NCBI GenBank assembly: GCA_964445485.1
Contig: CAYUPS010000003.1
Location: 1,528-65,527 of the forward strand
Length of the DNA: 64,000 bases
Source: an uncultured Methanosarcinales archaeon
GTDB lineage: Archaea > Nanobdellota > Nanobdellia > Woesearchaeales > ARS49
Direction of reading: 5' to 3'
In this document: piece by piece, positions 46,520 through 64,000 of the stretch
Position numbering within the stretch: the stretch's first letter is position 1
Layout: each line of letters begins with the position of its first letter
The notes under the pieces: model-generated
The model's database searches: none
The model's input: the letters and a program-made list of their open reading frames with translations, nothing else
What the model was told of the DNA's origin: nothing
Program-made: the position numbers and the translations under genes

Positions 46520-49500
46520 ATGGGCCCCCGCGCGAAGGTACTGATAGCACTCGCATTCCTTGTCCTTGCGCTCGCGCTCTCGTCGGTCTCGGCCGCGGCG
46601 TGCCACTGCGGCGCGTGCTGGTGCGGCATCTCCTTCAACAACGCGCAGCCGCCCGCCTCCTGCCAGCAGAACGTCACGCCCGGCGTCACGACCTTCGATT
46701 GCCAGACCTGGGGCCCTGTCAAATACGGCGATCCCGGCTCGTGGTACTCTATCGGCTTCAATCCCGGCGGCAACAAGTGCTACACCTGGCACTTCATGAA
46801 CTACTGCGGCAACATCAAGAGCGGCAGCGTCATCATCAACATCGACGATCCCGGCGGCGGCATCCTCGCCGACGCGAAAGGCCGCATCGTCTCGATGGTC
46901 AGCGGCCCCGCCACGCTCACTGTCAAGAAAGACGGCACGACCGTCGGCCAGATCAGCGGCGCCGGCGGCCCCACCGCGCCGAACCAGAACACCACGCCGA
47001 ATTTCACACTCGCGCCGGGCATCAACTCATTCACGTTCGACAACACCGCGGGCTGCACCACGATCAGCAACCCGATGAAAAGCTGCTTCCTCGTCCAGTA
47101 CCGCTACAAGATCGTGCGCGACATCGACTACAGCGAAGAGCTGTGCAAAGGCGTCGGCGGCGATTGGTATGAAGACGCAGAGCCCGGACGCGGCTGCTGC
47201 GGCGACGACGATCCCGGCGATTTCATGCTCATGAGCAACCAGGGCCTGTGCGTCAAGACCAATGCGGGTTGGCGCTGGGCAGCGCCGCCACGAGGAGGGC
47301 AGGTGCTCCACATCACTCCGCCCACGGGCGGCGCCGCTGTCGGCGACGATGCGGTCTACACCGATGACGGCCCGCGCGTGTGCGTGCGCAACATCACGCC
47401 GCTCATGCGCTTCGCCAACTACTCAGGCCTCGGCGTGAGCAACGTCAGCGGCCCGCGGGTCCCCGCCAACCTCACCACCGGCTTCTTCACGACGGCCAAC
47501 GGCACCAAGCACGGCGCGATCTGCCACAGGAGCGGCGCGACCGACTTCATCATCGAAGAATGCCCCGGCGCGGAAGGCCCCGTGACGCAGATCGCCGCGA
47601 GCGGCGCCGGCCGCATCGCGCAGGTCGGTTTCAAGCGCCTCTCCGACGGACCTCTCGGCGACGGCAAGAACCATTACTGCGCCAACGACGGCACGTGGAC
47701 GACAGACCTCGACATCAAGGATGAAGTGTCCTGCACGCGCGCAGGCAATGTCTGGACCGGCACGAAATGCTGCTCGGAGGACGACGACCCCGACGAGTCC
47801 TACAATGACCTGCGCGAGGGAACGCCGCAATATCCCGATTACATCCCGCCCGGCGCGACGGCGAGCCTCACCGGCATCGTGCGCTCAGGCAGCATCGGCA
47901 GCCCCGGCGGCACGCCTCCCCCGTGCGGGCCCGGCTACACCGACAGCGGCGTCATGACCGACTCGTTCCTCACCGCGGCTCCCGTCGAGCAACGCCACAG
48001 GCTCTGCCTCGCCGGCGTCGGGGGCAGCATCGTCACGCAAGGCCTCGGCAGCACGCGCCCGACAGACGCGCAAGCCCAATCGCAAGTCCCCGCCTGCCCC
48101 TCCGGCGCGAGCGCGGGCATCATCATCGACACTGCCGGCCTCCCCGGCTCGCAGTCATTCACCGGCTACCGCATCTGCCTCTCGCGGAATGTCGGCACGC
48201 TGCTCGAAGGCGCCGAGGACATCGAGACGTCCGCATTCGCGCCCGACTGCCCCGGCGGCAGCTCGAGCGGCGGTTCGTTCAAGGATCGCGTCTCCCCCGG
48301 CCGCGCACGCGCCTACCGTCTCTGCCTCACGCCCGAGCAGAACATGACTCCCTCGCAGGGCCCCGCGCAGCAGGGATCCATCGGAGGCTGCTTCCGCAAA
48401 GGCTTCGCAGGCACGGGCGCGCTGATCGTCAACAGCACCGGCCTCAATTATATGGGCAAATTCTGGGGCTGCCTCGTCAGCAACAACACCTTCCTCGGCA
48501 TCCAGGACTACCACGCCGGCGGCCCGCTGCTCACTGAGCGCGGCGCATGCCAGCCCGCCTTCCAGGACGCGTTCGGCCCCGGCCTGCACGCGCGCTGCAG
48601 CGCACGCGGCGTGTGGCAGCAATCGCTCTCTCTCGACACGACCGTGCAGAAGGACGCGCCGTTCACCGTCAGCGCCGCGCACCCGAACCAGGGCCTTGCG
48701 CAGTCTGACTGCTGCGCGGCCAGCGAGTGCTGGAGCGGGTCGGCATGCGTGCCCGACGGCGGCTACAGCAGCATCCGCGAGAGCACGACGGGATACCGCT
48801 GCGACGGCGGCAACTGGACAGTCGTGCCCATCAAGTTCAGCCCTGATTACCGCAGCAGCGGGTTCTGCCGGCGCGAGACGCAATGCCTCGTCAACGACGC
48901 CTTCAACCCCGATCTCGACGATGACCCTGCCGCGTTCTTCACCGGCGCATTCAGCCGCGAGAAGCCAAAGTGCATCGCGAGCGGCCAGTACATCAAGGAC
49001 AATTACTGCGACGGCGGGCTGTGGACGAGCAGGACCAAGCTGCTCGCGCTCTCGCTCGCGGGCCTCGCCGAGAACGTCTCGGCGCAGAACTACACGGTCT
49101 ACTGCGATGAATACAAAGAGGTGCTCAACCGCTTCTCGTACCTCGCGGACTTCGGCCTCGTCGAGGATTACCTCGCGCAGGACTGCCCGATCGGGCGCGC
49201 GACCCACGAGTGCGTCAGCAAGGTGTGCGCGCTTGAGTTCCGCGGCGGCGTGGCCGTCGGCGGCGTGCTGAACGCGGCCGTCGGCGGCAGCAAGTCGTTC
49301 CTGCGCGCGCTCAACGTCAGCCCTGCATCCTGCGACAGCGTTCCTTCGGGAGCCGGTTTCGGCGCGTGCGCGCCCGTCGACAGCGCGTCGCTCTTTTACG
49401 ACCGCGACCTGAACCTCGCGGTGTTCGTGCGCGGCGGCGGCTCGGTCCCCGTGCCCGCGCAGATCCCCTCGCCCCTCTCAGCGCCGCTGAGCGCATTGCA

Positions 49501-49864
49501 GCAGTACGTGCGCACGAGCGTGCATGCGGATTCGCCCCTCGCGCGCAACTACGCGTTCTTCGAGAGATTGCCCTTGCTTGATCGTCTCTATTTCGCGTCC
49601 AAGGGCAGCAGGCAGATCTTCGCGTTCTTCGAGACGGACAAGGGCGCGCAGAACACGACCGGCGTGGACTACATCGGCGCGGATTACAAGGGTTTCGAGA
49701 TCCCGCAGCGCCTGTGCGATGATGTCCTCGTGAAGGTCGACAGCAGGGCCGTGTGCGCCGAGCAGCCGCCTCTGGACTTCTTCGCGGTCGCCAAGCGCAC
49801 CCCGGACAAACCGGGCATCGGGCTGCTGTGGAAAGACCTGACCGCCAAGCTGCGCCCCCGATAA
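46520..49864 (+). CDS. Large secreted Cys-rich surface protein (1114 aa)
   Basis: Signal peptide MGPRAKVLIALAFLVLALALSSVSA; CCGDDD and CCSEDDD motifs; internal triple repeat. Confidence 0.85.
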   Translation: MGPRAKVLIALAFLVLALALSSVSAAACHCGACWCGISFNNAQPPASCQQNVTPGVTTFDCQTWGPVKYGDPGSWYSIGFNPGGNKCYTWHFMNYCGNIKSGSVIINIDDPGGGILADAKGRIVSMVSGPATLTVKKDGTTVGQISGAGGPTAPNQNTTPNFTLAPGINSFTFDNTAGCTTISNPMKSCFLVQYRYKIVRDIDYSEELCKGVGGDWYEDAEPGRGCCGDDDPGDFMLMSNQGLCVKTNAGWRWAAPPRGGQVLHITPPTGGAAVGDDAVYTDDGPRVCVRNITPLMRFANYSGLGVSNVSGPRVPANLTTGFFTTANGTKHGAICHRSGATDFIIEECPGAEGPVTQIAASGAGRIAQVGFKRLSDGPLGDGKNHYCANDGTWTTDLDIKDEVSCTRAGNVWTGTKCCSEDDDPDESYNDLREGTPQYPDYIPPGATASLTGIVRSGSIGSPGGTPPPCGPGYTDSGVMTDSFLTAAPVEQRHRLCLAGVGGSIVTQGLGSTRPTDAQAQSQVPACPSGASAGIIIDTAGLPGSQSFTGYRICLSRNVGTLLEGAEDIETSAFAPDCPGGSSSGGSFKDRVSPGRARAYRLCLTPEQNMTPSQGPAQQGSIGGCFRKGFAGTGALIVNSTGLNYMGKFWGCLVSNNTFLGIQDYHAGGPLLTERGACQPAFQDAFGPGLHARCSARGVWQQSLSLDTTVQKDAPFTVSAAHPNQGLAQSDCCAASECWSGSACVPDGGYSSIRESTTGYRCDGGNWTVVPIKFSPDYRSSGFCRRETQCLVNDAFNPDLDDDPAAFFTGAFSREKPKCIASGQYIKDNYCDGGLWTSRTKLLALSLAGLAENVSAQNYTVYCDEYKEVLNRFSYLADFGLVEDYLAQDCPIGRATHECVSKVCALEFRGGVAVGGVLNAAVGGSKSFLRALNVSPASCDSVPSGAGFGACAPVDSASLFYDRDLNLAVFVRGGGSVPVPAQIPSPLSAPLSALQQYVRTSVHADSPLARNYAFFERLPLLDRLYFASKGSRQIFAFFETDKGAQNTTGVDYIGADYKGFEIPQRLCDDVLVKVDSRAVCAEQPPLDFFAVAKRTPDKPGIGLLWKDLTAKLRPR

Positions 49865-49983
49865 GCGCCTTCTCGTCGAGACGCATCGAAAGATTAAAAA
49901 GGGGGAATGCCTCGCGTGAGGGTGATGGTCGGCCCTCTACTATCTATATGCGCGGCGGGATGGGCCCAGAGTCACAATGGCAC

Positions 49984-51477
49984 ATGAGACAGGCACAGAT
50001 AACTCTGTTCATCATCCTCGGCCTAGTGCTCCTGCTGGCGGTGGCCATCGCGGTCTACGTCCTGTCCAGCCAGGAAGGCGGTGATCAGGGCGTGCGCAGC
50101 AGCACCATACGGCAGGAAGTCATCAAGCCGGTCGAGCGGTACGTCACCGAATGCCTCAGCCTCGTCTCCAACGCAGGCATGCTGCTCCTCGCAGAGCAAG
50201 GCGGCACGATCACGCGCAGCCAAGGCGGCATCTCCCCCGATTTCCTCCCGGACCAGGAAGGCGAGCGCTACGTGCTCACCGACGAAGGAGCGAACGTCAC
50301 GTACCTGCTCAGGACAGACCCCTCCTTCACCATGGCCCTCGAGACTGCGCCGTTCATCTCCAGCAGCCCCACGCTCGAGCGGCACAGCCAGCTCGTGTAT
50401 CCCTACATGACATTCCCATTCAATCCCATCCAGCCCGTGCCGCAGTTCAGCATGAGCGGCCTCTTCGGGTGGAACCGCATCCAGCCGCTCGAGCACGGCA
50501 ATGACACCCCCGAGAGCTGGCAGGAGACCCTCGAGGCATACGTGAGCGCCAACGTGCAGCGCTGCGTCAACTGGGAACTGCTCGCCGGCACGCGCCGCAT
50601 CATCGCCCCCGACGAGCCTGCCGTGCGCGTCTCGTTCGGCAGGTCCGACACGACATTCCGCATGGCATGGCCGATCGTCGCCACCGAGATATCGACAGGC
50701 GCCACAGCGACCGTCAAGGACTTCAGCGTCACGCAGCCCGTCCGCCTCGCCTCCATCTACCAATCCATCCGCAGCATGCTCGACAAGGATGCGAGCGAGC
50801 TCCTCTACCGCGTCAAGGCAGAGCCGGGCGTGCGCGTCCAGCACGTGACACGCGACGGCAAATCCCACGGCTCGCTCGTGCACCTCACCGACACGCTCTC
50901 CTCCGTCGGCGATGAGCGGTACGTCATGACCTTCGCCCGCCACAACCGCCCGCCCGCACTCCTCGCCATCAACCAGACACTCCTTGACCAGCCCGACGCC
51001 TTCCTCGGCGACTGCCGCGACACCATCATCGGCTTCTCGCAGGGCGCGCGCGACTGCCCCGATGCGGAAGCACGGCTGGGCAGCAACGGCTGCCAGACAC
51101 CCAGCGGACCCGCCCCCGGCTGCGCAGACGATTCCCTCCAGTGCAGGGGCCTCGCGCTCGCACGCGACCTCGGCCAGGACAGCACGGCATTCGCCCTCAC
51201 CATCCGCGGCGGCGTGCACGGCGACGGCGAGCCCTGCGGCATCGACATCCGCCTCCCCCTCTTCGCCGTCGATCCCGACGAGCAATCAGTCCTGTTCCAG
51301 TTCGACTTCCCGCCCAACGTGCAAGGAGGCTACCGCGTCACCACCGACGATCTGGCGCGGCGCTGCCTCGGCGTCAAGGCAGTCGCCACCGACGGCACTG
51401 CCAAGGACTGGCAGGTCGCGCGCATCTGGACCAGCGGCCGCGACGAAGCGAGCTGCAGCTTTTTCACGATCAACTGA
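49984..51477 (+). CDS. Large pilin-like protein (class III signal RQA|QITLF)
   Basis: MRQAQITLFIILGLVLLLAV; V..YV..CL motif. Confidence 0.8.
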   Translation: MRQAQITLFIILGLVLLLAVAIAVYVLSSQEGGDQGVRSSTIRQEVIKPVERYVTECLSLVSNAGMLLLAEQGGTITRSQGGISPDFLPDQEGERYVLTDEGANVTYLLRTDPSFTMALETAPFISSSPTLERHSQLVYPYMTFPFNPIQPVPQFSMSGLFGWNRIQPLEHGNDTPESWQETLEAYVSANVQRCVNWELLAGTRRIIAPDEPAVRVSFGRSDTTFRMAWPIVATEISTGATATVKDFSVTQPVRLASIYQSIRSMLDKDASELLYRVKAEPGVRVQHVTRDGKSHGSLVHLTDTLSSVGDERYVMTFARHNRPPALLAINQTLLDQPDAFLGDCRDTIIGFSQGARDCPDAEARLGSNGCQTPSGPAPGCADDSLQCRGLALARDLGQDSTAFALTIRGGVHGDGEPCGIDIRLPLFAVDPDEQSVLFQFDFPPNVQGGYRVTTDDLARRCLGVKAVATDGTAKDWQVARIWTSGRDEASCSFFTIN

Positions 51478-51486
51478 GGAACACGC

Positions 51487-54400
51487 ATGAGGACACACGC
51501 GCTCATCGGCATCATCGCGCTCATCCTCTTCGCCCTCCCCGCCCTCGCCCAATCAGGCGCCACCGGCTGCTGCTGCGACAGCGCAGGCGACGCGCAGACA
51601 GGCAGCCTTCAGGCGCAATCCCAGTGCGACACCGCGCACCCCGTCTTCCTCACCGTCACCGCGCAGGACCTCTTCGGCGTCAGCGCAGAGGACCAGGCAG
51701 TGTTCTGCGACGCCAAATGCGCCCAGAACGCAGGCGTCACCCCTGAGCGGTGCGGCGACGGCGATATCCAGCCGCCTGAGCAGTGCGACGACGGCAACAC
51801 CGACAGCGGCGACGGCTGCAGCGCCACCTGCCTCGATGAAGGCGGACCCGTCAGCGTCGGCTGCGACGCGCCCGGCGCCGCCCCTGCCGTGCAGTCCCTG
51901 GCCGCGCGCCCCGTGCGCGGCGATAGGCGCATCCGCCTCACCTTCACCGTGCCGTGCGCCGCAGACTACCTCAACGTCTCGCGATGCACCGGCGCAGGAT
52001 GCACCAACTTCACCCTCATCGCGCTCCTGCCCAGCACCGGCATCTATGAGGACATCGATCCCGCGCTCGAATGGGGCAGGAACTACACATACAAGATCAC
52101 CGCGCGCTACCGCACCACCGGCGACAGCCCCGCAGCCACCGCCCTGGCGAGCCCCGGCGACATCGAATGCTGGGGCCGCACGGACACGAACCGATTCTGC
52201 CTCGGCTACAACTTCTACGAAGGCTTCCGCGACTACCTCCAGCAATTCGGCTACCTCCACTTCCCGCGCCAGGACTTCATCGCGGACTTCCGCGCCGCCG
52301 CGACCGCAGTCTTCGGCAACAGGTTCGGCCGCGACACATGGTGCGACGACCTCAACCGCGTCCAGGCTCCCACCGTGCAATGCCTCAACGGCAGCGTGTG
52401 CATCACCAACGGCGTCACCAGCCGCTGCCAGACCACCGGGCCGTGCGACACGGGCGGCGACCCGTTCAGCATGTTCTTCAGCGCAGCGAGCTGCGAAGCG
52501 AACGCGAGCGGACCGAAGTACTGCTTCTTCGACCGCTCCCGCAGCAGCATCAACGACTGCTACCAGTGCAACCCCCGCATGAGCTGCTATGACTACAAGA
52601 CGCGCAGGTCATGCGAAGCAGACAACTGCGGCGCCGGCGCGTGCCAGTGGCGCCCCACATTCGACCTCCTGGGCCTCGGCGTGTGCATCGACACGCGCAT
52701 CAACAACTGCCCCTTCTGCCACACGGGCGGCAGCGGCTTCGTCCGCACCGTCAACAGCACCAGCCGTGTCTTCGACGGGTGCTCCGCGAGCAAGGCCGCA
52801 GCGCTCTCCACGCCGCAATATCCCTGCTTCGTGCGCCAGGCGCCCAACGGCACGCCCGAAGGCAACTCGTGCGACACCGCCATCTGCCCTGACTTCGACA
52901 TCGACAGGTGCGGCACGCCCGCCGGCGGCATCCGTCTCGATACCGACAATCGGGTCATCACGCGCTCGGCCGATCCGTGCGGCATCGGCATCTGCCACTA
53001 CACCGCCGCGACCGGCTGCATCAAGAACGGCGACGGCAACGACCCCTTCCAGATAGGCTGGCAGGACTGCGCCGCCGGCGATACGCGCTGCGAGCGCGAC
53101 TACCTCCCGCCCGAGACCCTCATGGTCGCCGTCGGCGCGAGCGGCCGTCACGACAACCTCTTCATCCAGATCAACGACAAGACAGAGCGCAACGGCAGCC
53201 TCAAGGTCATCCCTGCCGGCGCGCCCAACTACACCACGAGCTTCTGCATCGCCGCCGTCGGCCAGACCTGCGCCAACTACAGCATCACCGTCAACGTCTC
53301 GGCAGTCCGCATCAAGGACCTGACATTGCGCGTTGGCAACCGCACCGTCGCCCGCCTCCCCTCCCAAGGCACGTACGTCGCGCGCTACACCAGCAAAGAT
53401 GCCGCGAAGAACATCGAGGCCGTGCAGAACGCCACGTTCCGCGTGTGCAACAACTGCTCCCCGCCCATCTGCTCCGGCCCGAACGTCACGCCAGGCAGGC
53501 AGTTCGGCAACCAGCTCTTCGCCCGCAGCGCGCAGCCCCAACTGAGCATCGACTGCGGCGAGCCCGTCAACGTCACCCTCGCGTCTGTCGTGCGCGGCGG
53601 CTTCCTCGTCAACCTCACCAAGCTCGACCCGCCGTTCAGCACGGACGCGCCGCGCTTCGGCACGCCCACCGCCTTGGCGGACAACATGTACAACTACACC
53701 ATCAACGCGCACGACAACAAGACGCTCTACCTCGACACGCCGCTGCAGGGCACGCTCGTGATCGACACCGTGCCGCCCACTGTCGTCATCTCGCCCGCCG
53801 ACGGGTCCGCGTTCGACCGCAACAGCGTCGACATCACGCTCAACTTCAGCGAGAAGGTCATCATCGACTCGCTGGAGCTCGCCGAGGAGGTGTTCATCTC
53901 GCCGTTCGTCAAGAACGCCACCATCATCGACCTGCTCAACATCACCAAGACCCGCGACAACCAATCCTACACCGTCCAGTCCCGCAGCCTCCAGGCGGGC
54001 AGGCACGTGCTGCGCGTGCGCGCAGGCGACTTCGCCGGCAACGAGATCACCGCCCTGTCCGCGTTCTACATCGCCACCGCGCCCACCAGCATCCGCCTCG
54101 CCTACCCCCGCTTCGGCGTCGCGCCCGCCTTCACCTTCAACGTGACCGTCGAGACCAGCAACCCCGCCGAGTGCCGCTACAGCTTCAACACACCCTCGGC
54201 GCCCAGCGCGGCCAGCTTCATCTTCCTGCCCGCCATGAGCAACACCAGCCCGAGCCTGCATGTCATCCGCGACTTCCGCGGCATCCCGCCAGGCGACTTC
54301 AGCGAGCACCCCCTGCACGTGCTGTGCAAGGACCGCATCGGCACCAGCGTCAAGTCATTCACGCTGCGCGTCGACAACACCCCGCCCACGATCATCTCGG

Positions 54401-57059: not shown

Positions 57060-58108
57060 GAACCAAAGGATTCGAGCTCCAGTTCCACTGGATATTCGTC
57101 ATGATAGCGGGCGCGGTCATCCTCGCCTTCTTCCTCTCCCTCGCCATGCGCGCCCGCGAGAGCGGCCAGCAGGAAGCCGCCATCGAGGTCTCGAACGCCG
57201 TCGCCGCCGCGTTCACCGGCGCGCTCCAGAGCCCGGACGCGTTCAACAACCAGACCAGCCCCCTGCAGGGCATCTCGTTCGAGTGCTCTCCGTCGTGCGA
57301 GTGCAACTTCTACATCGATCCCGACGGCGTGCGCAAAGCCACGTCATTCGGCGAGAAGATCATCATGGCGCCGCCCGCACTGCGCGATCGCCCCCTGCAG
57401 CTGTGGACGATCCCGTGGGCGCTGCCGTTGCGCGCCGCCAACATGCTCATCGTCTCCAACGAAGACTACCATCTCTACATCGTGCACGATGACGGCGACG
57501 TGACATCGTCGCGCATCTTCGCCCGCATCAACAAGAGCCTGCCGCGCGACTTCGGCGCGCAGCACATCGCGCCAGACGATGTCATGCGGCTCGAGGACAC
57601 AGGCTACCCTTCGTACCGCTTCGTGTTCCTCAGCCTCGATCCGCAGCAGTACGTCCCCCGCGGCCTGCGCGATGCAGAGGATCTGAGCGCGGTCAAGATC
57701 GATGACACGGGCGCCGCGTTCTACGAGTTCGACGGCGGCGCCTGGCAGCGGCTCACCGACGTCCCCTACCCCGCGCAGCACTACCCGTCAGCCATGGCTG
57801 CCATGTTCGCCCGCGATCCCGCCATGTTCGCATGCGGCATGCGCAACGCATACCGCAAGCTCTCGTTCATCAGCCGCATCCAGCACGAGCGCACCATCGC
57901 GCTCTCCGCCGCGCCTGAATTGCAGCAGAACGGGTGCTCGTACCTCGCCGAATGGGACAAGATGGGCGCCGCGGCGTCCTCGCTCTCGCGCAGCACGCAG
58001 TTCAACGATGCGGACCTGAGCGCGCTCGATGCGGCTGTCCGCTCCGTCGAGCTCGAGAACCGCAGGCTGCTCGACATAGGCCCCACCAAATGCCCCAGCA
58101 TGTACTGA
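57047..58108 (+). CDS. Pilin-like protein (TKG|FELQFHWIF)
   Basis: Class III-type leader and hydrophobic helix. Confidence 0.8.
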   Translation: MPRLGTKGFELQFHWIFVMIAGAVILAFFLSLAMRARESGQQEAAIEVSNAVAAAFTGALQSPDAFNNQTSPLQGISFECSPSCECNFYIDPDGVRKATSFGEKIIMAPPALRDRPLQLWTIPWALPLRAANMLIVSNEDYHLYIVHDDGDVTSSRIFARINKSLPRDFGAQHIAPDDVMRLEDTGYPSYRFVFLSLDPQQYVPRGLRDAEDLSAVKIDDTGAAFYEFDGGAWQRLTDVPYPAQHYPSAMAAMFARDPAMFACGMRNAYRKLSFISRIQHERTIALSAAPELQQNGCSYLAEWDKMGAAASSLSRSTQFNDADLSALDAAVRSVELENRRLLDIGPTKCPSMY

Positions 58109-58110
58109 CC

Positions 58111-58617
58111 ATGGCACGACACGCGCAGATCCGGATGTTCGAGACCGTCGGCGTACTGGCAGTCTTCCTCTTCCTCATGGTCATCGCAGGCATCTTCTAC
58201 TTCCAGTTCCAGCGCACCACCATCGAGGAGAAAGTATCGGAAGCGGTCGAGCTGCGCTCTGCCGAGACGTTCCTGCGCGCGCTCTACCTGCCCGAGTTCG
58301 ACTGCCCCGCGACGAGCGGCGTGACGGCAAACTGTTTTGATAGACTGAAACTCAACGCGTTCGCAGGCCTGATGGCGGGCGGCGGCGACCAGATGCTCCT
58401 CGAGTACTTCCCCCTGTTCGGCTACACCACTGTCGCAGTCTCGACGGTATGGGAGCGCCCGCCAGGAGGCGCGCCGTTCAGGATCACGCTCTATGACTAC
58501 AGGCCTGAGACTGTGCTCAGCCAGAACGTATTCCGCAGCCCCGTCCTCATCTTCGACGGCACGCGCAACGCCATGGACTTCGGCATGCTGGAGGTGACGT
58601 CCTATCGCGCAGGCTAG
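58111..58617 (+). CDS. Pilin-like protein (RHA|QIRMFET)
   Basis: ATG 58111; class III-type leader. Confidence 0.8.
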   Translation: MARHAQIRMFETVGVLAVFLFLMVIAGIFYFQFQRTTIEEKVSEAVELRSAETFLRALYLPEFDCPATSGVTANCFDRLKLNAFAGLMAGGGDQMLLEYFPLFGYTTVAVSTVWERPPGGAPFRITLYDYRPETVLSQNVFRSPVLIFDGTRNAMDFGMLEVTSYRAG

Positions 58618-59140
58618 AAAAGCGCAGATGGAGATCCTCGGCCTCGCCATCATCGTCATACTGCTGGCGCTCGGCCTGCTGTTCGCCGTCGTCGTCCTCT
58701 TCCAGGAATCCCCGCGCACCGGCGGGCGCATCGCGCAGAGCGAATTCGCCACCAACTGGGTCAACACCATGCTCGGCACCACCACGGACTGCACCCCTGC
58801 GTCGGGCGTCGGCAGCAAACGCATGTCCAACCTGCTCATCGACTGCGCCAAGACCGGAGGGCGGGCGCTATGCCCCAACGGCCAGACCGTCTGCGAGCGC
58901 GCCGAGGACATCCTCCGCCAGATGCTCGACGCCACCTTCGGCACAGAGAAGCGCGACTACATCTTCACCATCACCGGCACGACAGAGATAGAGACGATGT
59001 TCTCCGGCGACAATGCGCTCAGAGGATGCTTCCGCGAGGACGGCAAGTGCTGCCTCTGGGACATCGAAGCGAACGCAGAATACAAAGTCCCGCTCGGCAC
59101 AGGGCCTGCCCTCGAGCCCGTCCTGAAAATCTGCAAGTGA
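58604..59140 (+). CDS. Pilin-like protein (RKA|QMEILGL), probable ATC start
   Basis: In-frame ARKAQ lies upstream of ATG 58628; GGAGGTGA SD 6 nt before ATC 58604. Confidence 0.75.
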   Translation: MAQARKAQMEILGLAIIVILLALGLLFAVVVLFQESPRTGGRIAQSEFATNWVNTMLGTTTDCTPASGVGSKRMSNLLIDCAKTGGRALCPNGQTVCERAEDILRQMLDATFGTEKRDYIFTITGTTEIETMFSGDNALRGCFREDGKCCLWDIEANAEYKVPLGTGPALEPVLKICK

Positions 59141-59143
59141 CTC

Positions 59144-59962
59144 CTAGAAGATGCGCCAGCGCAACGTCCGGTACATCTCCTGCGCCGTCGGACGAGCGAA
59201 CGGATCCTTGCGCAGAGTCGCGTTCACGAGCGATTCAATGCTCCGCGGGATGCCGGGCGCGCGCTCACGCAGCGGAACCGGCTTTTCGAGGAGTATCTTC
59301 TCGCGCATGTGGCGCTGATAATCCTCCGACTGCATGTTCGGACGGTCCTGCTCGAACGGGCGCACTCCTGCGAGCTGCTCATAGAGAATGACGCCGAGCG
59401 ACCACACATCGCTCGCCTGCACCGGCTCCCCGTCGAATGTCTCCGGTGCGCGATACTTCGTCTTGCAATGATCCGCAGGATGCGTCTTGCCGAGGAGGAG
59501 GCTGTTGCCGAAATCAGTCACTTTCACGCGCCCGCCGCAGACGAAGATGTTGCCCGGGTGGAGATCGTTGTGGATAAGAGTTGCGGAATGCGCTTTTGAT
59601 ATTGCCCCAGCTCCCCGCCCCACTGCGTTTATTTGAGGTGGCTCCACTTTATCAAGAGTCGTTCCAGACAAATATTCTTCAACTAAATATTTAGGAGAAT
59701 TAAGAAAATGTATTTTGTAAATTGAAGCAATATTTTTAGTAGTATTCAATGTTTTCAACTGAATTTTACCTTCTATCTCTTCGGTTGTTTCGAAGAGTTT
59801 CAGTACAACGGGATATTTTGTCTCGGTGTATTTTCCGCTCCAGATGTTTTTGTGGTGGAGTATTGCGTCGGCGAGGTATGCGCTTTTGTGCTTGCCGCTG
59901 CCGAGGTGTTGGCGGATGATGAATTGGCAGTCAAATGTCTGCCCAGGGGAGAGCGGTTTCAC
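59144..59962 (-). CDS. Serine/threonine protein kinase (Hanks-like, cytoplasmic)
   Basis: LGSG, VVLK, IHNDLHPGNI, DFG, APE, DVWSLG, R in subdomain XI. Confidence 0.85.
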   Translation of the reverse strand: MKPLSPGQTFDCQFIIRQHLGSGKHKSAYLADAILHHKNIWSGKYTETKYPVVLKLFETTEEIEGKIQLKTLNTTKNIASIYKIHFLNSPKYLVEEYLSGTTLDKVEPPQINAVGRGAGAISKAHSATLIHNDLHPGNIFVCGGRVKVTDFGNSLLLGKTHPADHCKTKYRAPETFDGEPVQASDVWSLGVILYEQLAGVRPFEQDRPNMQSEDYQRHMREKILLEKPVPLRERAPGIPRSIESLVNATLRKDPFARPTAQEMYRTLRWRIF

Positions 59963-60899
59963 GGGTCATCTGCTCCACGCGGTCGTGCCGGTAGGTGGTG
60001 TCGAGGTCGTTGAGGTAGGGGAGTTGGAGCTCTTGCAGTTCTGCGGTGAGGTTGAAGATGGTGCGGAGTGCGCGGTAGAGGGGTGTTTCGCTTTTGCCGG
60101 GGGCGTCGATGAGGGGTTTGAGCTGGTCGTAGACTGTGGCGATGTCGCGTGCGGTCTGGGTGCGGAGGGTGAAGGTGAGCTCGTAGCATTTGACGTACAT
60201 GTCGATGAGGCCTTGGAGGATGCGGAGGAGGTCTTTGTCGGCGGTGATTTTGTGTTTTGCGGCGTAGGCGAATGCCCATTTGTATTCGTCGCCGATGCGT
60301 TCTGTCTGGCGCAGGAGGGTGTAGAACATGGGCGCGTTGGGGTTGTGGATTTTCGGGCTTTTTGCGATGCGGCGGGTGCAGTAGTAGACGAATTTGTTGA
60401 TCTCGATGTCGAAGAGGGTGAGGGCTGCGAGGGCGTCGTAGTCTTTTTCGCAGAGGGCGATGATGCCTTCTTCGACCATGTTCTTGAGGAGCAGGAGGGT
60501 GCGGCGCATGAGCTGGGTGATGTCGGTGTCGTTGTTGCCGCCGAGGTCATTGATGGTGACGTTGCGTGGTGTTTGGGTGACGATCTCGTAGCCGATGGTC
60601 TGCTCGAGGTGGCGTTGGATGTCTGCGCGGAGTTGGGGGTCGGAGAATCTGAGTTTGATCTCGTCGTAGCCTTCTTGGTAGAGGCGGAGGATGACGCGGC
60701 GGAGGAGGGGGCCGAGGGTGTCGCAGTCGATCTCGATGGTTTTGCGTCCGCTGGTGTGTTTGGCGCGGATGAGGAGGTCTTGGTGGTGGGGTTCGACGTC
60801 GACTTGGTCGCCTTTTTTGATGCTGTGGGCGGTGACCCAGCTGACGGGGAGGCTGATGACGTGGGTGTTGTCGGCGATGCGGATCACTTTGCGCTTCAT
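59931..60899 (-). CDS. AbrB/MazE-PhoU family regulator (archaeal phosphate-uptake regulator type)
   Basis: MKRKVI...VISLP.SW...IKKGD; IGYEIV; ERIGDEY. Confidence 0.85.
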   Translation of the reverse strand: MKRKVIRIADNTHVISLPVSWVTAHSIKKGDQVDVEPHHQDLLIRAKHTSGRKTIEIDCDTLGPLLRRVILRLYQEGYDEIKLRFSDPQLRADIQRHLEQTIGYEIVTQTPRNVTINDLGGNNDTDITQLMRRTLLLLKNMVEEGIIALCEKDYDALAALTLFDIEINKFVYYCTRRIAKSPKIHNPNAPMFYTLLRQTERIGDEYKWAFAYAAKHKITADKDLLRILQGLIDMYVKCYELTFTLRTQTARDIATVYDQLKPLIDAPGKSETPLYRALRTIFNLTAELQELQLPYLNDLDTTYRHDRVEQMTRETALPWADI

Positions 60900-60977: not shown

Positions 60978-61011
60978 CACGCCCCGAAGGAAACCCGCGC
61001 AGGTGATCTCC

Positions 61012-61503
61012 ATGAACAGACCCGATACGAAGACACTGCGCCTCCTCGCCGTCCTCCGCAGCGACGGCAGGGCCACACTGACCAACATCGCCCGCAAGAT
61101 GGGCATGCCCATCAGCACCACCTTCGACCGCCTCCGCACCCTCGAAGAGACCGAGATCAAGCGCTACACCGCCCTCATCGATTTCGGCGACTTCGGTTTC
61201 TCCGCCCGCGCCTTCCTCCTCATCCGGTGCGCCAAGCAGCACAAGGAAGAGCTCACCAAGCACCTCCTCCACCATCACAGCGTCAACACGCTCATCCAGA
61301 TCAACAACGGCTGGGACCTCCTCGCAGAGACGGTCTTCCCCGACATCAGGCGGCTCGAGGAATTCCTCGACACCATCGAGCCGCGCTTCGGCATCAAGAC
61401 CCTCCAGGTCCACTATGTCATAGACGACCTCCGCCGCGAAGGATTCCTCGCAGACCCCGACACGGCAGACACCCTCCATTCGTCGGGCCGCAGCAAAGTT
61501 TAA
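61012..61503 (+). CDS. Lrp/AsnC family transcriptional regulator
   Basis: LLAVLRSDGRATLTNIARKMGMPISTTFDRL HTH; RAM-like C-terminus; AGGTGA SD. Confidence 0.9.
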   Translation: MNRPDTKTLRLLAVLRSDGRATLTNIARKMGMPISTTFDRLRTLEETEIKRYTALIDFGDFGFSARAFLLIRCAKQHKEELTKHLLHHHSVNTLIQINNGWDLLAETVFPDIRRLEEFLDTIEPRFGIKTLQVHYVIDDLRREGFLADPDTADTLHSSGRSKV

Positions 61504-61542
61504 ATATCTGGTCGCCTCGCTCCGACGCAGAGGTACCTCACT

Positions 61543-61869
61543 ATGATGCGACAGGGCCAAGGGCTTCCGATATCGACAATCATCATCGCAGCGCTCGGAC
61601 TCCTCGTCCTCGTCGTCATCGCCGCCATCTTCGGCAGCCAGATCACGCAGGTCGGCGCCGTCACGCGCGAGTGCCAGTACCGCTGCGCAGGCCCCGCCGG
61701 CCCGTTCGCCACCGCAGACATCGCCGGCGCCCTCGAGAACTTCGAGCGCGATCCCGCCTCCTGCAACGACGGCTTCGAGAAAGCGCTCGCAGGCCAGTCT
61801 TTCTTCACACAGGACGCCCCGCAGCCAGGCATGAAATACATCTGCAAAGCCTGCTGCGCCCCCATCTGA
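61543..61869 (+). CDS. Small pilin (RQG|QGLPISTIII), major-pilin candidate
   Basis: Class III leader, hydrophobic helix, Cys-bonded small head ending CCAPI. Confidence 0.85.
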   Translation: MMRQGQGLPISTIIIAALGLLVLVVIAAIFGSQITQVGAVTRECQYRCAGPAGPFATADIAGALENFERDPASCNDGFEKALAGQSFFTQDAPQPGMKYICKACCAPI

Positions 61870-61879
61870 GGTCGGACAC

Positions 61880-62140
61880 ATGCTGTTCCGCCGCGGCCAG
61901 GGACTCCCGCTCAACACGGTCATCCTCGCCATCCTCGTCCTGTTGGTTCTCGTGATCGTCGGCGCCATCTTCGGCAGGCAGCTCGGCCTCTTTGGCCAAG
62001 AGACCCGCACGGCGACCGGTGAAGAGAAAGAATGCACCACGCCTCGCGCGGTCGTGGACAACTGCCCCCCGGGAACAGTCGAATCCTACGACCGCTACAA
62101 GGGACTCACATTGACACAGAAGTGCTGCATCCCCGCCTGA
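61880..62140 (+). CDS. Small pilin (RRG|QGLPLNTVIL), major-pilin candidate
   Basis: Paralogue of 61543; ends KCCIPA. Confidence 0.85.
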   Translation: MLFRRGQGLPLNTVILAILVLLVLVIVGAIFGRQLGLFGQETRTATGEEKECTTPRAVVDNCPPGTVESYDRYKGLTLTQKCCIPA

Positions 62141-62187
62141 TTCCCCCGTCGAAACTCTTATATATACTAGAGGCGCCCTTTTGAAGC

Positions 62188-62310
62188 ATGTTTCGACGCG
62201 GCGCGCACAGCACCCTCCTCAATACGCTCGTGTACCTAGGCCTGTTCCTGGGCCTCTTCATCCTCATCATGTTCATCATCAACAAGATGCTCGCGGGGGC
62301 CGCCGCATGA
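62188..62310 (+). CDS. Mini-pilin (40 aa; MFRRG|AHSTLLNTLVYLGLFLGLFILIMFII)
   Basis: Translated by hand (below the ORF-track cutoff); upstream TTATATATA; stop overlaps the next ATG. Confidence 0.7.
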   Translation: MFRRGAHSTLLNTLVYLGLFLGLFILIMFIINKMLAGAAA

Positions 62311-63329
62311 CACAGCGCAAGGGCGCCCTGACCATGATAGAAGTCATCGTGCTGCTCCTCATCCTCCTCATCTTCGCCCTGGTGTTCATGGCAGCAGTGC
62401 TGCCCAAGATACAGAGCGCGCTCGGCAGCGAGACGATCAAGTGCGACTGGAGCCTCTTCCTCCACGCCTTCAGCAAAGTCGGCGGCGTCGCGGCAATACC
62501 CCCCGAGTGCAAAGCCCACCGCTTCACCATCACCAAGAACGACCTCGAGCGCCTCGTGCCCGACGCCCGCAAAGCCATCAACATGTACCATGAGCAGCCC
62601 GAGAAGTACGCCGTGAGCGGCGTCGGCGTCGATGTCCTCCAGACATTCAAGCCCGACGGCGGCGAGTGGGAATGGGCGCTGGACAAGCTCGTCGCGGACG
62701 AGCTCAAGAGCTGCAGCGACAAAGTCATCAAAGGCAAACTCCCCCTCTTCAGCGAATGGTGGTCGCTCCTCGACTGCAAGGACGAGAAAGCCGCCGGCGG
62801 CTACCGCAAGTGCACCCCGGACGACTGGTCCGCGGCCTCCACCATCACCGCCATCGTCCTCCCCGGCATCGGCATCATGGGCCTCATCGGCGAGATGGCC
62901 GGCGACACCGTCCGCTTCGCCAAAGCCCCCACCTTCTGCGTCCTCTGCAGCCGCATCGTCATCGACCCGGAAGTCCCGCCGCTCATCGGCAAGAACACAG
63001 TCACTTCGCTCCGTGCCTGGATGGCCATCAACCCCGTCCGCAGCACCAATGAACCCTACTACAAGTACGTCGACGAGTGGCAGACGCCCACCGACAGCGC
63101 GCTCTTCAAGCCCAAATACACATTCGACCTCGACACGCCCCTCGCAGTCATGTACGAGCGCGTCAACGTCTTCAAAGCAAAAGGCGTGCTCGACTGGGGC
63201 CTGCGCGCCGCCGGCTTCATCGGCGAGCCGGACCAGCCCACCAACACGCTCAAAGTCCTGCCCTACACGCCCGAGGCAATCATCGGGACGCCGGAGACCG
63301 CAGGGGAGTGCCAATGGATACTCGATTGA
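62307..63329 (+). CDS. Pilin-like protein (RKG|ALTMIE), 340 aa
   Basis: ATG 62307; hydrophobic helix; several Cys pairs. Confidence 0.82.
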   Translation: MTQRKGALTMIEVIVLLLILLIFALVFMAAVLPKIQSALGSETIKCDWSLFLHAFSKVGGVAAIPPECKAHRFTITKNDLERLVPDARKAINMYHEQPEKYAVSGVGVDVLQTFKPDGGEWEWALDKLVADELKSCSDKVIKGKLPLFSEWWSLLDCKDEKAAGGYRKCTPDDWSAASTITAIVLPGIGIMGLIGEMAGDTVRFAKAPTFCVLCSRIVIDPEVPPLIGKNTVTSLRAWMAINPVRSTNEPYYKYVDEWQTPTDSALFKPKYTFDLDTPLAVMYERVNVFKAKGVLDWGLRAAGFIGEPDQPTNTLKVLPYTPEAIIGTPETAGECQWILD

Positions 63330-63463
63330 ATAAACGGGGCGAGACGCCCGGCTGGGTGTACGTGATCGCGTTCATCCTCGGCCTGCTCCTCGTCGTCATC
63401 GTCGGCTACATCATCGGCAAGAGCGCCGGCGTGCAAGTCGACATCCTCGGAGATATATGGTGA
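63314..63463 (+). CDS. Mini-pilin (49 aa; NKRG|ETPGWVYVIAFILG)
   Basis: GGGGAG SD before ATG 63314; overlaps both neighbours. Confidence 0.7.
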   Translation: MDTRLNKRGETPGWVYVIAFILGLLLVVIVGYIIGKSAGVQVDILGDIW

Positions 63464-64000
63464 TTCGCGGACGCAAAGCATTCACGTGGAGCGCCATACT
63501 CACCATAGTCCTCGGGCTCTTCGTCCTCATCGCGCTCGCCCTCGGCCCCGGCCGCGTCACGTACGAATTCGCAAAAGAGAAATTCTTCGGCGAGAAAGGC
63601 CTCTTCGCCAAGCCGCCCCGCGGCGACTTCGTCCCCTGGACCGGCCCGGAGCTCACGCAGGACGACATCCTCGCGCTCGACTCCATGGCCGCGCTGCAGT
63701 GCGCCGCCTCCGGCACCGCCGCAGGCGCCATACTGCTCGGCGACGGCACGGCCAACGACGCGGTCTGCCCGCAGAACCGCGAAGGCGGCCACGCCCGCGA
63801 AGTGCGATCAGGCAGCGTCTGCTACGGCGGGGCCTGCGCGAGCTGCAGAGGCATCAAGCAGCGCACCATCACGCTCCCCGGCGATGCGCAAGAGAACGCC
63901 GTGCGCCTCGCCAACACAATGCTCACCTGCATGCAGCACGCCAAGCTCGGCAAGCTCGCCACGCAGACGGGCGAGTACTTCAACTGCGCCGTCATCGACC
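63457..64000 (+). CDS. Pilin-like protein (GRKA|FTWSAIL), truncated by the window end
   Basis: Open frame from ATG 63457 to the window end, translated by hand: MVIRGRKAFTWSAILTIVLGLFVLIALALGPG... Confidence 0.75.
   Translation, partial: MVIRGRKAFTWSAILTIVLGLFVLIALALGPGRVTYEFAKEKFFGEKGLFAKPPRGDFVPWTGPELTQDDILALDSMAALQCAASGTAAGAILLGDGTANDAVCPQNREGGHAREVRSGSVCYGGACASCRGIKQRTITLPGDAQENAVRLANTMLTCMQHAKLGKLATQTGEYFNCAVID

What the first reader, a model, noticed from the sequence alone, without database searches (positions are those of the whole stretch)
46520..64000. Adhesin-pilin super-locus: 11 class III signal genes plus two giant Cys-rich surface proteins
Seen: more than 17 kb, mostly co-oriented and overlapping. 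Class III-type leaders occur at 49984, 56538, 57047, 58111, 58604, 61543, 61880, 62188, 62307, 63314 and 63457 (40 to ~500 aa). Five have Gln at +1. The 1114- and 1684-aa surface proteins are interleaved. No ATPase, TadC or prepilin peptidase is in the window, and the locus is still open at the right edge. Known: +1 Gln pilins are EppA-type substrates in methanococci, and DPANN cells attach to hosts. Inference: an uncharacterised composite attachment apparatus, with major pilins (61543, 61880), graded minor/tip pilins and a membrane-anchored adhesin. This is the best candidate for a new system in the window.
Basis: partly seen in the sequence, partly recalled or inferred. Interest (0 to 1): 0.78.

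Follow-up and report, generated by a model that had tools for sequence, protein, structure and literature searches.

The report
Woesearchaeal pilin-like surface gene cluster
This stretch is a previously unannotated gene cluster, shared by many tiny symbiotic Woesearchaeota archaea, that encodes about a dozen pilin-like proteins and two giant cysteine-rich surface proteins, probably parts of a filament used to grip other cells.

Summary
All 11 proposed class III-type leaders sit on real genes, and each belongs to a protein family conserved in related genomes. One correction: the gene at 58604 must start at a non-ATG codon. The organism is a high-GC (63%) Woesearchaeote (DPANN).

The same gene order recurs in 87 related loci: secreted Cys-rich protein, 497-aa pilin-like protein, ~1,700-aa membrane-anchored Cys-rich giant, four consecutive pilin-like genes, an optional kinase/AbrB-PhoU/AsnC regulator block, then small Cys-rich pilins and more pilin-like genes. 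The anchor family has 1,862 clusters in public data.

- **Leader motif:** N-termini carry a conserved [KR][AG]-Gln motif. Gln is 91-100% conserved in four families, the signature of EppA-type prepilin peptidase substrates.
- **Structure:** AlphaFold2 models the 353-aa member at pLDDT 94.5 with a 54-residue N-terminal helix followed by beta strands, a pilin-like layout.
- **No known relatives:** no family matches Pfam, NCBIfam or PDB.
- **No machinery nearby:** no ATPase, platform or peptidase gene lies within 10 kb in any locus.
- **Relatives:** some fuse the same kind of leader to peptidoglycan hydrolases.

Best reading: structural genes of a type IV filament-like attachment apparatus whose assembly machinery is encoded elsewhere. 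Cleavage, filament formation and function are inferred. New variant of a known kind; interest 0.66.

The parts
46472..46494 (+). AT-rich TATA-box-like element about 26-48 nt upstream of the 46520 start; candidate promoter of module A
   Evidence: Sequence tgtatatagaaagatatataaaaa in a 65% GC context. Inferred only.
46520..49864 (+). 1114-aa secreted Cys-rich protein (my family label F6): Sec-type signal peptide, 48 Cys, 16 N-glycosylation sequons, no membrane anchor
   Evidence: Homologues in 38 loci, as one fused gene or two genes. No Pfam hit.
49984..51477 (+). 497-aa class III-leader protein (F7); leader MRQA|QITLF
   Evidence: Family motif [KR][AG]-Q(100%)-[IL]-T. Homologues in 45 loci. 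No Pfam or NCBIfam hit.
51487..56541 (+). 1684-aa giant Cys-rich surface protein (F0): Sec signal, Ig-like region, three ~45-aa Cys-rich repeats, TSP3-type Ca-binding repeats, C-terminal TM helix 1532-1550, ~130-aa cytoplasmic tail
   Evidence: Family present in 82 of 88 sources clustered (87 related loci plus the window), median 1648 aa. C-terminal TM in 43 of 60 full-length members, median Cys 4.7%. 34 sequons. Highest GC3 in the window, 0.92.
56538..57059 (+). 173-aa pilin-like protein (F3); leader MNRKG|MDLQQ
   Evidence: Family motif [KR][AG]-Q(91%)-x-x-G-Q-V-F. 63 loci. 4-nt overlap with the upstream gene.
57047..58108 (+). 353-aa pilin-like protein (F1, the anchor family); leader MPRLGTKG|FELQFHW
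   Evidence: Homologues. 1,862 50%-identity clusters at E<=1e-3. AF2 pLDDT 94.5, pTM 0.88: helix 7-60, then beta strands 66-146, an alpha/beta part and a helical bundle. No PDB fold match.
58111..58617 (+). 168-aa pilin-like protein (F4); leader MARHA|QIRMFET
   Evidence: Family motif [KR][AG]-Q(100%)-I-K-M-F-E(100%). 67 loci. No PDB sequence match.
58604..59140 (+). 178-aa pilin-like protein (F5), apparently started at ATC 58604; leader (M)AQARKA|QMEILG
   Evidence: Family motif [KR][AGS]-Q(100%)-M-E(100%)-I-x-G(100%). The motif lies upstream of the first ATG (58628), with no stop after 58597. GGAGGTGA sits 6 nt upstream of the ATC. 64 loci.
59144..59962 (-). 272-aa Ser/Thr protein kinase (regulator block)
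   Evidence: Pkinase E=2.3e-27. Kinase-like genes occupy this position in most loci: F10 APH-like or F23.
59931..60899 (-). 322-aa AbrB/MazE-type DNA-binding domain plus PhoU-like region (regulator block, F9)
   Evidence: Weak MazE_antitoxin (E=8e-4) and PhoU hits. Conserved ~300-aa gene in 39 loci on the opposite strand.
61003..61503 (+). 166-aa Lrp/AsnC-family transcription regulator (F11)
   Evidence: HTH_24, HTH_IclR and AsnC_trans_reg hits. Conserved position in 28 loci.
61499..61507 (+). TATA-box-like TTTAAATAT about 44 nt upstream of the 61543 start
   Evidence: Inferred only.
61543..61869 (+). 108-aa small Cys-rich pilin-like protein (F2 copy 1); leader MMRQG|QGLPISTIIIAAL
   Evidence: Paralogue of 61880 (E=1.5e-5). 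Family of at least 1,007 proteins of 80-126 aa. Motif K-[KR]-[AG]-Q-G-L-[PS]-I-N-T-I-I-I-A-A-L, 6 Cys ending in CC. AF2 helix 10-48 (pLDDT >90 for residues 11-30), head not modelled.
61880..62140 (+). 86-aa small Cys-rich pilin-like protein (F2 copy 2); leader MLFRRG|QGLPLNTVIL
   Evidence: One to three tandem F2 copies in 43 loci.
62158..62166 (+). TATA-box-like TTATATATA about 30 nt upstream of the 62188 start
   Evidence: Inferred only.
62188..62310 (+). 40-aa mini-protein: class III-like leader plus one hydrophobic helix (MFRRGA|HSTLLNTLVYL)
   Evidence: Similar 35-45-aa ORFs end at the start of the F8 homologue in 20 of 45 cases. No BLAST-level similarity.
62307..63329 (+). 340-aa pilin-like protein (F8); leader MTQRKG(A)|LTMIEV, with Glu at +5 or +6 as in bacterial pilins
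   Evidence: Homologues (18 loci). Family leader [KR][KR][GA]. Only sub-threshold ComGF and Flp1_like hits.
63314..63463 (+). 49-aa mini-protein: leader plus helix (NKRG|ETPGWVYVIAF)
   Evidence: Conserved P-G-W mini-ORF directly after F8 in at least 12 loci. BLAST hits in L025 and L041.
63457..64000 (+). N-terminal 181 aa of a large (~975-1000 aa) class III-leader protein (F25 type); runs off the window
   Evidence: 32% identity to the N-terminus of a 973-aa protein at the same position in L034, and to one in L021. A 927-aa protein sits at this position in L007.

Best explanation
The region holds the structural genes of a Woesearchaeales-wide, type IV filament-like cell-surface apparatus. It is built from two modules with a regulator block between them.

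Module A (46520-59140) encodes:
- a secreted Cys-rich protein;
- a 497-aa pilin-like protein;
- a ~1,700-aa glycosylated, Ca-binding, Cys-rich giant anchored by a C-terminal helix;
- four consecutive pilin-like proteins.

This layout recalls bacterial minor-pilin plus PilY1 operons.

Module B (61543 to beyond the edge) encodes two small Cys-rich pilins (candidate filament subunits), two 40-50-aa leader-plus-helix mini-proteins and larger pilin-like proteins.

Proposed mechanism (inferred). Each precursor inserts by its hydrophobic N-terminus. An EppA/PibD-type prepilin peptidase encoded elsewhere cuts after [KR][AG], exposing Gln. A FlaI/PilB-type ATPase and platform, also encoded elsewhere, assemble the small pilins into a fibre. 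The four module A pilins would prime or cap that fibre, and the giant proteins would act as adhesins for a host or another surface.

Shown: the genes, their conservation, the leader motif and the predicted helix-plus-sheet structure. Inferred: cleavage, filament assembly and the adhesion role.
For: - Synteny is conserved in 87 related loci, nearly all labelled Woesearchaeota/Nanoarchaeia. The families are large: 1,862 clusters for F1 and at least 1,007 proteins for F2.
- The leader motif [KR][AG]-Q has Gln in 91-100% of members in F7, F3, F4 and F5, and 67% in F2. Such conservation at a fixed distance from the hydrophobic core fits a protease recognition site. A +1 Gln is required by the M. 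maripaludis pilin peptidase EppA (PMC4390842).
- The motif is absent from every cytoplasmic family in the same loci.
- The AF2 model of g57047 (pLDDT 94.5, pTM 0.88) has a 54-residue N-terminal helix starting at the predicted cleavage site, followed by beta strands. g61543 has a confident helix at 10-48.
- The N-termini of the families align to each other in register (hhalign probability 50-66%).
- Cys counts are even (2, 4, 6) in the extracellular parts.
- In relatives the same kind of leader, plus a shared ~150-aa N-terminal module, is fused to peptidoglycan hydrolases. This resembles modular pilins (PMC8179133).
- FlaI, FlaJ and FlaK homologues are reported in Woesearchaeota genomes (PMC8407392). 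Epd-like 'system 1' machineries are reported in DPANN (preprint 10.64898/2026.04.22.720090).
Against: - No ATPase, platform or A24 peptidase lies in the 64-kb window or within 10 kb of the anchor gene in 87 loci.
- No pilin model in Pfam or NCBIfam matches any window protein. Members of the small-pilin family give only sub-threshold hits: Arch_flagellin in 3 of 54, Flp1_like in 1 of 54.
- There is no sequence or fold match to solved pilins.
- The head of the small pilin is not confidently modelled.
- The giant proteins use Sec signals. One is anchored in the producer's own membrane, which is not how a tip adhesin such as PilY1 is held.
- One groundwater study states that type IV pilus components are missing in DPANN.
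- There is no expression, proteomic or imaging evidence.
Confidence: 0.6

Rival explanations
1. The leaders are processed, but the proteins do not build a long pilus. Instead they form a short pseudopilus or a bindosome-like surface scaffold. This scaffold would display enzymes and binding proteins, including peptidoglycan hydrolases in relatives and the Cys-rich giants here, at the cell surface or at the contact zone with a host.
For: - Many different large proteins (150-1,000 aa) carry the leader, far more than a simple pilus needs.
- Hydrolase fusions share a common N-terminal module.
- No retraction or extension ATPase lies nearby.
Against: - The small, abundant, tandemly duplicated F2 family and the mini-proteins look like polymerising subunits.
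- A set of four consecutive pilin-like genes is typical of filament priming complexes.
- A pseudopilus would still need the same machinery.
Confidence: 0.17
2. The N-termini are uncleaved signal anchors. On this view the locus encodes a membrane-embedded cell-envelope complex. The 1,700-aa giant could be the S-layer-like coat protein, and the small proteins its membrane stalks or assembly factors. No type IV machinery would be involved.
For: - No assembly genes are nearby.
- There are no pilin model hits.
- The giant has the Sec signal, many sequons, C-terminal anchor and highest GC3 expected of an abundant envelope glycoprotein.
- The locus is near-universal and single-copy, like a housekeeping envelope cluster.
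Against: - A plain anchor does not explain 91-100% conservation of Gln right after [KR][AG] in four unrelated families, or the invariant Glu in F4 and F5.
- It does not explain the 54-residue helix running well beyond a membrane span.
- A Cys content of 4.7% is unusual for S-layer proteins (own knowledge).
Confidence: 0.18
3. The pattern is a chance run of hypothetical membrane ORFs in a GC-rich sequence. Some of the ORFs, the 40-aa and 49-aa ones in particular, would not be real genes.
For: - High GC creates many long spurious ORFs.
- The relaxed leader test also picks up Sec signals.
- The 40-aa ORF has no BLAST-level homologue.
Against: - Every gene has the GC3 bias of true genes.
- Nine families are conserved in 32-87 loci spanning 30-59% GC.
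- The mini-ORFs recur at fixed positions.
Confidence: 0.02

Closest known systems
Epd pilus of Methanococcus maripaludis (EppA-processed pilins; archaeal TFF 'system 1')
   Same: - Short basic leader ending in G/A with Gln at +1.
- Several minor pilins plus a small major pilin with little or no globular head.
- Pilin genes partly at loci separate from the machinery.
- System 1 is reported in some DPANN.
   Different: - No detectable sequence relation: no Class_IIIsignal/DUF361 or other pilin model hits.
- No ATPase, TadC or EppA in or near the locus.
- Far more leader-bearing genes.
- Two giant Cys-rich Sec-dependent proteins.
- Small pilins carry a 6-Cys head.
Bacterial minor-pilin operons with a large adhesin (fimU-pilVWXY1E of T4aP; GspH-K of T2SS; ComGD-GG)
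   Same: - Four consecutive, overlapping pilin-like genes next to a very large surface protein gene.
- One pilin much larger than the others (353 aa).
- Conserved Glu near the mature N-terminus in several members.
   Different: - Archaeal, with no homology.
- The large protein has its own Sec signal and a C-terminal membrane anchor with a cytoplasmic tail.
- Leader cleavage would expose Gln rather than a methylated Phe.
Modular type IV pilins (e.g. Streptococcus sanguinis PilB, PMC8179133)
   Same: In relatives a pilin-like N-terminal module is fused to functional modules: Amidase_2+SLT, Amidase_3, M23, 3D, glucosaminidase.
   Different: - The fused modules are murein hydrolases rather than adhesion domains.
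- They are seen in relatives only. The window ends before that part of the locus.
Type IV pili of Saccharibacteria/CPR episymbionts (PMC9894109, PMC12206443)
   Same: - An ultrasmall symbiont lineage with a conserved pilin repertoire proposed to mediate host contact.
- Woesearchaeota occupy the same habitats as CPR episymbionts.
   Different: - Bacterial systems with recognisable PilA/B/C/D genes and experimental support.
- Here the parts are unannotated and the machinery was not seen.

Membership tests
Type IV pilin-like proteins (class III signal peptide proteins) | Short, positively charged leader ending in Gly/Ala, immediately followed by a ~20-residue uncharged hydrophobic stretch | tested here: met
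   All 11 window proteins. Conserved in families F1-F5, F7, F8 and 12 or more further families, and absent from the cytoplasmic families.
Type IV pilin-like proteins (class III signal peptide proteins) | Extended (~50-residue) N-terminal alpha-helix, its C-terminal half packed on a beta-sheet head | tested here: inconclusive
   g57047: helix 7-60 then strands 66-146 at pLDDT 94.5, but coordinates were not inspectable and no solved pilin matched. g61543: helix 10-48, head below pLDDT 50. Other members not modelled.
Type IV pilin-like proteins (class III signal peptide proteins) | Match to curated pilin N-terminal models (Pfam Pilin_N, Class_IIIsignal, N_methyl, Flp1_like; NCBIfam pilin models) | tested here: not met
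   No hit at or near threshold. Only ComGF E=0.046 and Flp1_like E=0.097 for g62307; Arch_flagellin in 3 of 54 F2 members, E>=0.013.
Type IV pilin-like proteins (class III signal peptide proteins) | Cleavage of the leader by an A24-family prepilin peptidase | not testable with these tools
   Needs biochemistry or proteomics. No peptidase gene in the window.
Type IV filament system (TFF: ATPase + platform + peptidase + pilins) | Pilin genes accompanied by a PilB/FlaI-type ATPase and a TadC/FlaJ-type platform in the locus or genome | tested here: not met
   In the locus: none within 10 kb in 87 loci plus L088. In the genome: not testable here. The literature reports FlaI/J/K in Woesearchaeota but also a claim that they are absent from DPANN.
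EppA-type (Epd) pilins of methanococci | Gln at +1 of the cleavage site | tested here: met
   Five window genes. Gln conserved in 91-100% of F7, F3, F4 and F5 members and 67% of F2. Requirement shown in PMC4390842.
EppA-type (Epd) pilins of methanococci | Sequence homology to Epd pilins or the DUF361 motif QxSxExxxL | tested here: not met
   No Pfam hit to that family. The motifs differ: QGLPINT, QIKMFET, QMEIxGL.
Archaellum | Archaellin (FlaB) genes with FlaC-J accessory genes | tested here: not met
   No Arch_flagellin hit for window proteins and no Fla accessory genes in any locus.
PilY1-like tip adhesin | Large secreted protein encoded with minor pilins, with a beta-propeller/vWA architecture and no membrane anchor of its own | tested here: not met
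   g51487 is encoded next to the four pilin-like genes. However, it has a C-terminal TM plus cytoplasmic tail and only weak TSP3, DUF4215 and Ig-like hits. The analogy is positional only.

The most novel reading that the evidence does not exclude
Woesearchaeales may carry a lineage-specific, host-breaching organelle. In this reading a type IV filament is built from tiny disulfide-knotted pilins whose heads weakly resemble defensins. The filament would be tipped or decorated by four minor pilins, giant Ca-binding Cys-rich adhesins and, in many species, pilin-fused murein hydrolases. It would be used to grip and open the peptidoglycan wall of bacterial rather than archaeal hosts. That would make many Woesearchaeota cross-domain episymbionts or predators, and would overturn the view that DPANN lack pili.
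Probability: 0.2. Interest if true: 0.85.

Novelty: new variant of a known kind. Interest (0 to 1): 0.66.

Why it matters
How DPANN archaea recognise and hold on to hosts is an open question. Woesearchaeota, among the most widespread DPANN, have no cultured member. Standard annotation calls every protein here 'hypothetical', and at least one study took DPANN to lack type IV pilus components.

This locus offers concrete, testable candidates:
- a conserved set of about 12-20 pilin-like genes;
- two giant adhesin-like proteins;
- a dedicated kinase/AbrB-PhoU/AsnC regulator block;
- in relatives, pilin-fused peptidoglycan hydrolases that point to bacterial partners.

It also supplies markers, the F1 and F2 families, for finding the apparatus in metagenomes, metaproteomes and cryo-ET data.

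Tried and rejected
- **Extending the contig.** Exact-protein look-ups of window proteins and of P0001 found nothing on record. Close-relative scans of GTDB genomes and JGI metagenomes with the 340-aa protein found nothing. The 8.5 kb to the right of the window remain unseen.
- **Family assignment by sequence.** Pfam and NCBIfam on all locus proteins gave no meaningful hits. Profile searches of PDB sequences with F2, F4, F5 and F3 returned only TM noise.
It was redone with database proteins.
- **Hunt for machinery in neighbouring DNA.** Walker-A and multi-TM screens over about 1,300 ORFs found only ABC transporters and GT-C-like glycosyltransferases. NuoF-like and Fe-hydrogenase-like neighbours (F32, F33), RNase P p30 (F24) and RPA (F16) mark the locus borders.
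- **Rejected: archaellum.** No archaellins or Fla accessory genes.
- **Rejected: chance ORFs.** Conservation across 30-59% GC genomes excludes this.
- **Rejected: mobile or viral element.** The locus is single-copy, sits between housekeeping genes, and has the same neighbours (RNase P p30 upstream) in relatives.
- **Literature.** Six full-text searches found no description of this locus. That covers only the held library.

Full report
**1. What is in the sequence**

The window is archaeal, with about 63% GC. Housekeeping genes fill the first 46 kb: DNA primase-like Toprim, RIO kinase, topoisomerase VI A and B, Hef, RFC, PAN, TyrRS, PheRS alpha and beta, ThiI-like, pseudouridine synthase and RNase P p30.

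From 46520 to the right edge lie 16 genes with the GC3 bias of real genes. Thirteen are co-oriented, and several overlap by 4-14 nt. Each begins with a short basic stretch ending in Gly/Ala, followed by a long uncharged hydrophobic segment.

The 1114-aa protein has 48 Cys and the 1684-aa protein has 82 Cys; both start with Sec-type signal peptides. The 1684-aa protein also has:
- three ~45-aa Cys-rich repeats;
- TSP3-type calcium-binding repeats;
- weak Ig-like hits;
- a C-terminal TM helix (1532-1550) and a ~130-aa cytoplasmic tail;
- 34 N-glycosylation sequons.

These are a Ser/Thr kinase (59144-59962, minus strand, Pkinase E=2.3e-27), an AbrB/MazE-PhoU-like protein (59931-60899, minus strand) and an Lrp/AsnC regulator (61003-61503).

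AT-rich TATA-like elements stand about 30-45 nt upstream of 46520, 61543 and 62188. This suggests at least three transcription units, which is inference only.

**2. The gene at 58604**

The first ATG is at 58628. However, the frame is open from 58598 and encodes A-Q-A-R-K-A-Q upstream of that ATG. In 55 homologues the N-terminus reads [KR]-[AGS]-Q(100%)-M-E(100%)-I-x-G(100%). The conserved leader therefore lies upstream of the ATG.

The only near-cognate codon there is ATC at 58604, and it sits 6 nt after GGAGGTGA.

**3. Relatives and taxonomy**

The 353-aa protein (57047) has database homologues at 28-34% identity. Their contigs show the same gene order. A profile of the family found 137 relatives among GTDB species representatives. 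Eighty loci were fetched.

Nearly all informative labels among these loci are Candidatus Woesearchaeota or Nanoarchaeia. Many TPA bins are labelled 'uncultured Methanosarcinales' and one 'Binatia', which look like mislabels. One locus is from MAG LFW-252_3, classified as Woesearchaeota in PMC8561730. A full HMMER scan gave 1,862 clusters at E<=1e-3 and 758 at E<=1e-30, all about 320-390 aa. The window has the highest GC of all these loci.

**4. Conserved architecture**

I clustered about 1,300 ORFs from 87 loci. The family labels F0-F33 are my own. The recurring order is:

- F6 (one fused gene or two) – F7 – F0 (giant, median 1648 aa) – F3 – F1 – F4 – F5;
- an optional block of kinase-like, AbrB-PhoU and AsnC genes;
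- F2 (one to three copies) – mini-ORF – F8 (one or two copies) – mini-ORF;
- a variable run of further leader-bearing proteins.

The window genes map to these families as follows:

| Window gene | Family |
|---|---|
| 46520 | F6 |
| 49984 | F7 |
| 51487 | F0 |
| 56538 | F3 |
| 57047 | F1 |
| 58111 | F4 |
| 58604 | F5 |
| 61543, 61880 | F2 |
| 62307 | F8 |
| 63457 | F25 (~1,000 aa in L034) |

The number of loci (of 87, the window included where present) in which each family was found is limited by contig ends:

| Family | F0 | F3 | F4 | F5 | F7 | F2 | F6 | F8 |
|---|---|---|---|---|---|---|---|---|
| Loci | 82 | 67 | 67 | 66 | 47 | 43 | 39 | 32 |

The regulator block is missing in L007, so there the two halves touch. 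In L088 the second half stands alone, next to an RPA gene. The 'super-locus' is therefore two modules that usually, but not always, travel together.

The two mini-ORFs of the window (40 and 49 aa) are real. Similar ORFs flank F8 in many loci, and the downstream one has a shared [KR][AG]-x-[ED]-x-P-G-W motif.

**5. Are these class III signal proteins?**

Evidence for:
- The aligned N-termini give [KR][AG]-Q. Gln is present in 100% of F7, 91% of F3, 100% of F4, 100% of F5 and 67% of F2.
- F4 and F5 also carry an invariant Glu a few residues later. F1 has K-x-[GA]-[IFV]-E-x-Q-F-[NH]-W-I-F.
- At least 12 further families in the variable part share the [KR][KR][GA] leader. None of the cytoplasmic families does.
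- This is the signature expected of a protease site. A +1 Gln is needed for cleavage by the M. maripaludis pilin peptidase EppA (PMC4390842).
- AlphaFold2 on an 81-sequence alignment models g57047 at pLDDT 94.5 and pTM 0.88. A 54-residue helix (7-60) starts at the predicted cleavage site. It is followed by beta strands (66-146), an alpha/beta part and a helical bundle. This is the classic pilin layout with extra domains.
- g61543 has a confident helix (10-48). Its Cys-rich head is not modelled.
- The families align to each other in register at the N-terminus (hhalign probability 50-66%).

Evidence against:
- No pilin model in Pfam or NCBIfam matches.
- No solved structure matches by sequence or by fold.

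**6. Where is the machinery?**

No PilB/FlaI ATPase, TadC/FlaJ platform or A24 peptidase lies in the window or within 10 kb of the anchor gene in any locus. Motif screens found only ABC transporters and GT-C-like membrane proteins.

Whole genomes could not be searched here. The literature is split:
- FlaI, FlaJ and FlaK are reported as annotated in Woesearchaeota (PMC8407392).
- A 2026 preprint places Epd-like 'system 1' machineries in DPANN.
- A groundwater study states that type IV pilus components are missing in DPANN.

**7. Functional hints from relatives**

At the far end of the locus, several relatives encode 350-1,040-aa proteins with the same kind of leader and peptidoglycan-hydrolase domains:
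- Glucosaminidase (E=1.3e-15), Amidase_2 (E=2.3e-27) plus SLT, and weak 3D and VanY hits.
- Among 108 distal leader-bearing proteins: Amidase_3 in 3, M23 in 2, SLT in 2, 3D in 2 and Amidase_2 in 1.
- A 1,041-aa protein with a weak SLT hit in L088.

These proteins share an N-terminal ~150-aa module with different catalytic modules behind it. This recalls modular pilins (PMC8179133). It suggests that some Woesearchaeales act on bacterial cell walls. The window ends before this part of its own locus.

**8. Best explanation and rivals**

I think this is most likely (0.6) the structural gene set of a type IV filament-like attachment apparatus, with the machinery encoded elsewhere.

| Reading | Confidence |
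|---|---|
| Type IV filament-like attachment apparatus | 0.60 |
| Processed proteins forming a short pseudopilus or bindosome-like display scaffold | 0.17 |
| Uncleaved anchors of an envelope complex, with the giant as an S-layer-like coat | 0.18 |
| Chance ORFs | 0.02 (refuted for the nine larger genes) |

Which protein is the fibre subunit is open. F2 is small, duplicated and very abundant in databases. The 40-50-aa mini-proteins resemble head-less Flp/Epd pilins.

**9. Novelty**

Type IV pilin-like systems are a known kind. The families, the architecture and the hydrolase fusions were not described in any paper I could find. All database names for these proteins are 'hypothetical'. I rate it a new variant of a known kind, with interest 0.66.

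Noticed in passing
window 30683-36979 (minus strand): A second unannotated surface-protein cluster. It holds three paralogous ~310-aa lipoproteins (lipobox LLLAGC/LLLSGC; pairwise E=1e-30 to 3e-11), a 548-aa protein with several N-terminal TM helices and a beta-rich C-terminal part, and a ~400-aa protein whose N-terminus (MADKTGG|NAATVIAIILLLF) also looks class III-like. None has a Pfam hit.
   Followed up: partly
window 58598-58630: The F5 gene seems to start at ATC (58604), 6 nt after a GGAGGTGA site. The first ATG (58628) would delete the conserved R-K-A-Q leader. This is either a rare non-canonical start or a base error in the assembly.
   Followed up: yes
window 61543-62140 and A3 family members: The 6-Cys heads of the small pilin family give weak hits to defensin-like families: AtDEF-like in 8 of 54 members (best E=2e-5) and Beta defensin in 7 of 54 (best E=8e-4). 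The consensus spacing C-x6-C-x6-C-x11-C-x10-CC is defensin-like. It may be convergence of small disulfide knots.
   Followed up: partly
window 42890-44639: The ThiI-like tRNA sulfurtransferase appears split into two overlapping ORFs in different frames. One is 42890-43741 (ferredoxin-like + THUMP). The other is 43533-44639 (PP-loop domain from residue 107). This may be a frameshift or a sequencing error.
   Followed up: no
window 45952-46401 (minus strand): A 149-aa protein with an N-terminal TM helix and a Cys-containing extracellular part, transcribed divergently from the locus. A similar small TM/Cys-rich gene (my F26) sits at this position in L013, L017, L036 and L042, but BLAST finds no significant similarity to it.
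   Followed up: partly
L008-L087 record titles: About a third of the genomes carrying this Woesearchaeal locus are labelled 'uncultured Methanosarcinales archaeon' (TPA bins). One (L029) is labelled 'Candidatus Binatia bacterium'. These are probably placeholder or wrong taxonomy, or a contaminant contig.
   Followed up: no
L001, L002, L004, L005 contig ends: Several homologous contigs break within or just after the AsnC/small-pilin region. The tandem, fast-evolving small pilin genes may cause assembly breaks or strain variation there.
   Followed up: no
A8 members (distal class III-like proteins in related loci): One distal leader-bearing protein carries Hint/intein-type domains (PT-HINT E=9e-11, Vint, Hint). 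Others carry TPM-phosphatase, PKD or TPR domains. The leader is therefore attached to a wide range of cargo.
   Followed up: no
L007 15267-18202: Directly after the pilin block lie two ~490-aa proteins with 9-10 TM helices. By eye they resemble GT-C-type glycosyltransferases, and no Pfam hit is on record for them. They could glycosylate the surface proteins.
   Followed up: no
window 10703-11911: A DUF4382 lipoprotein (E=7e-18) with a lipobox, another predicted surface protein unrelated to the locus.
   Followed up: no
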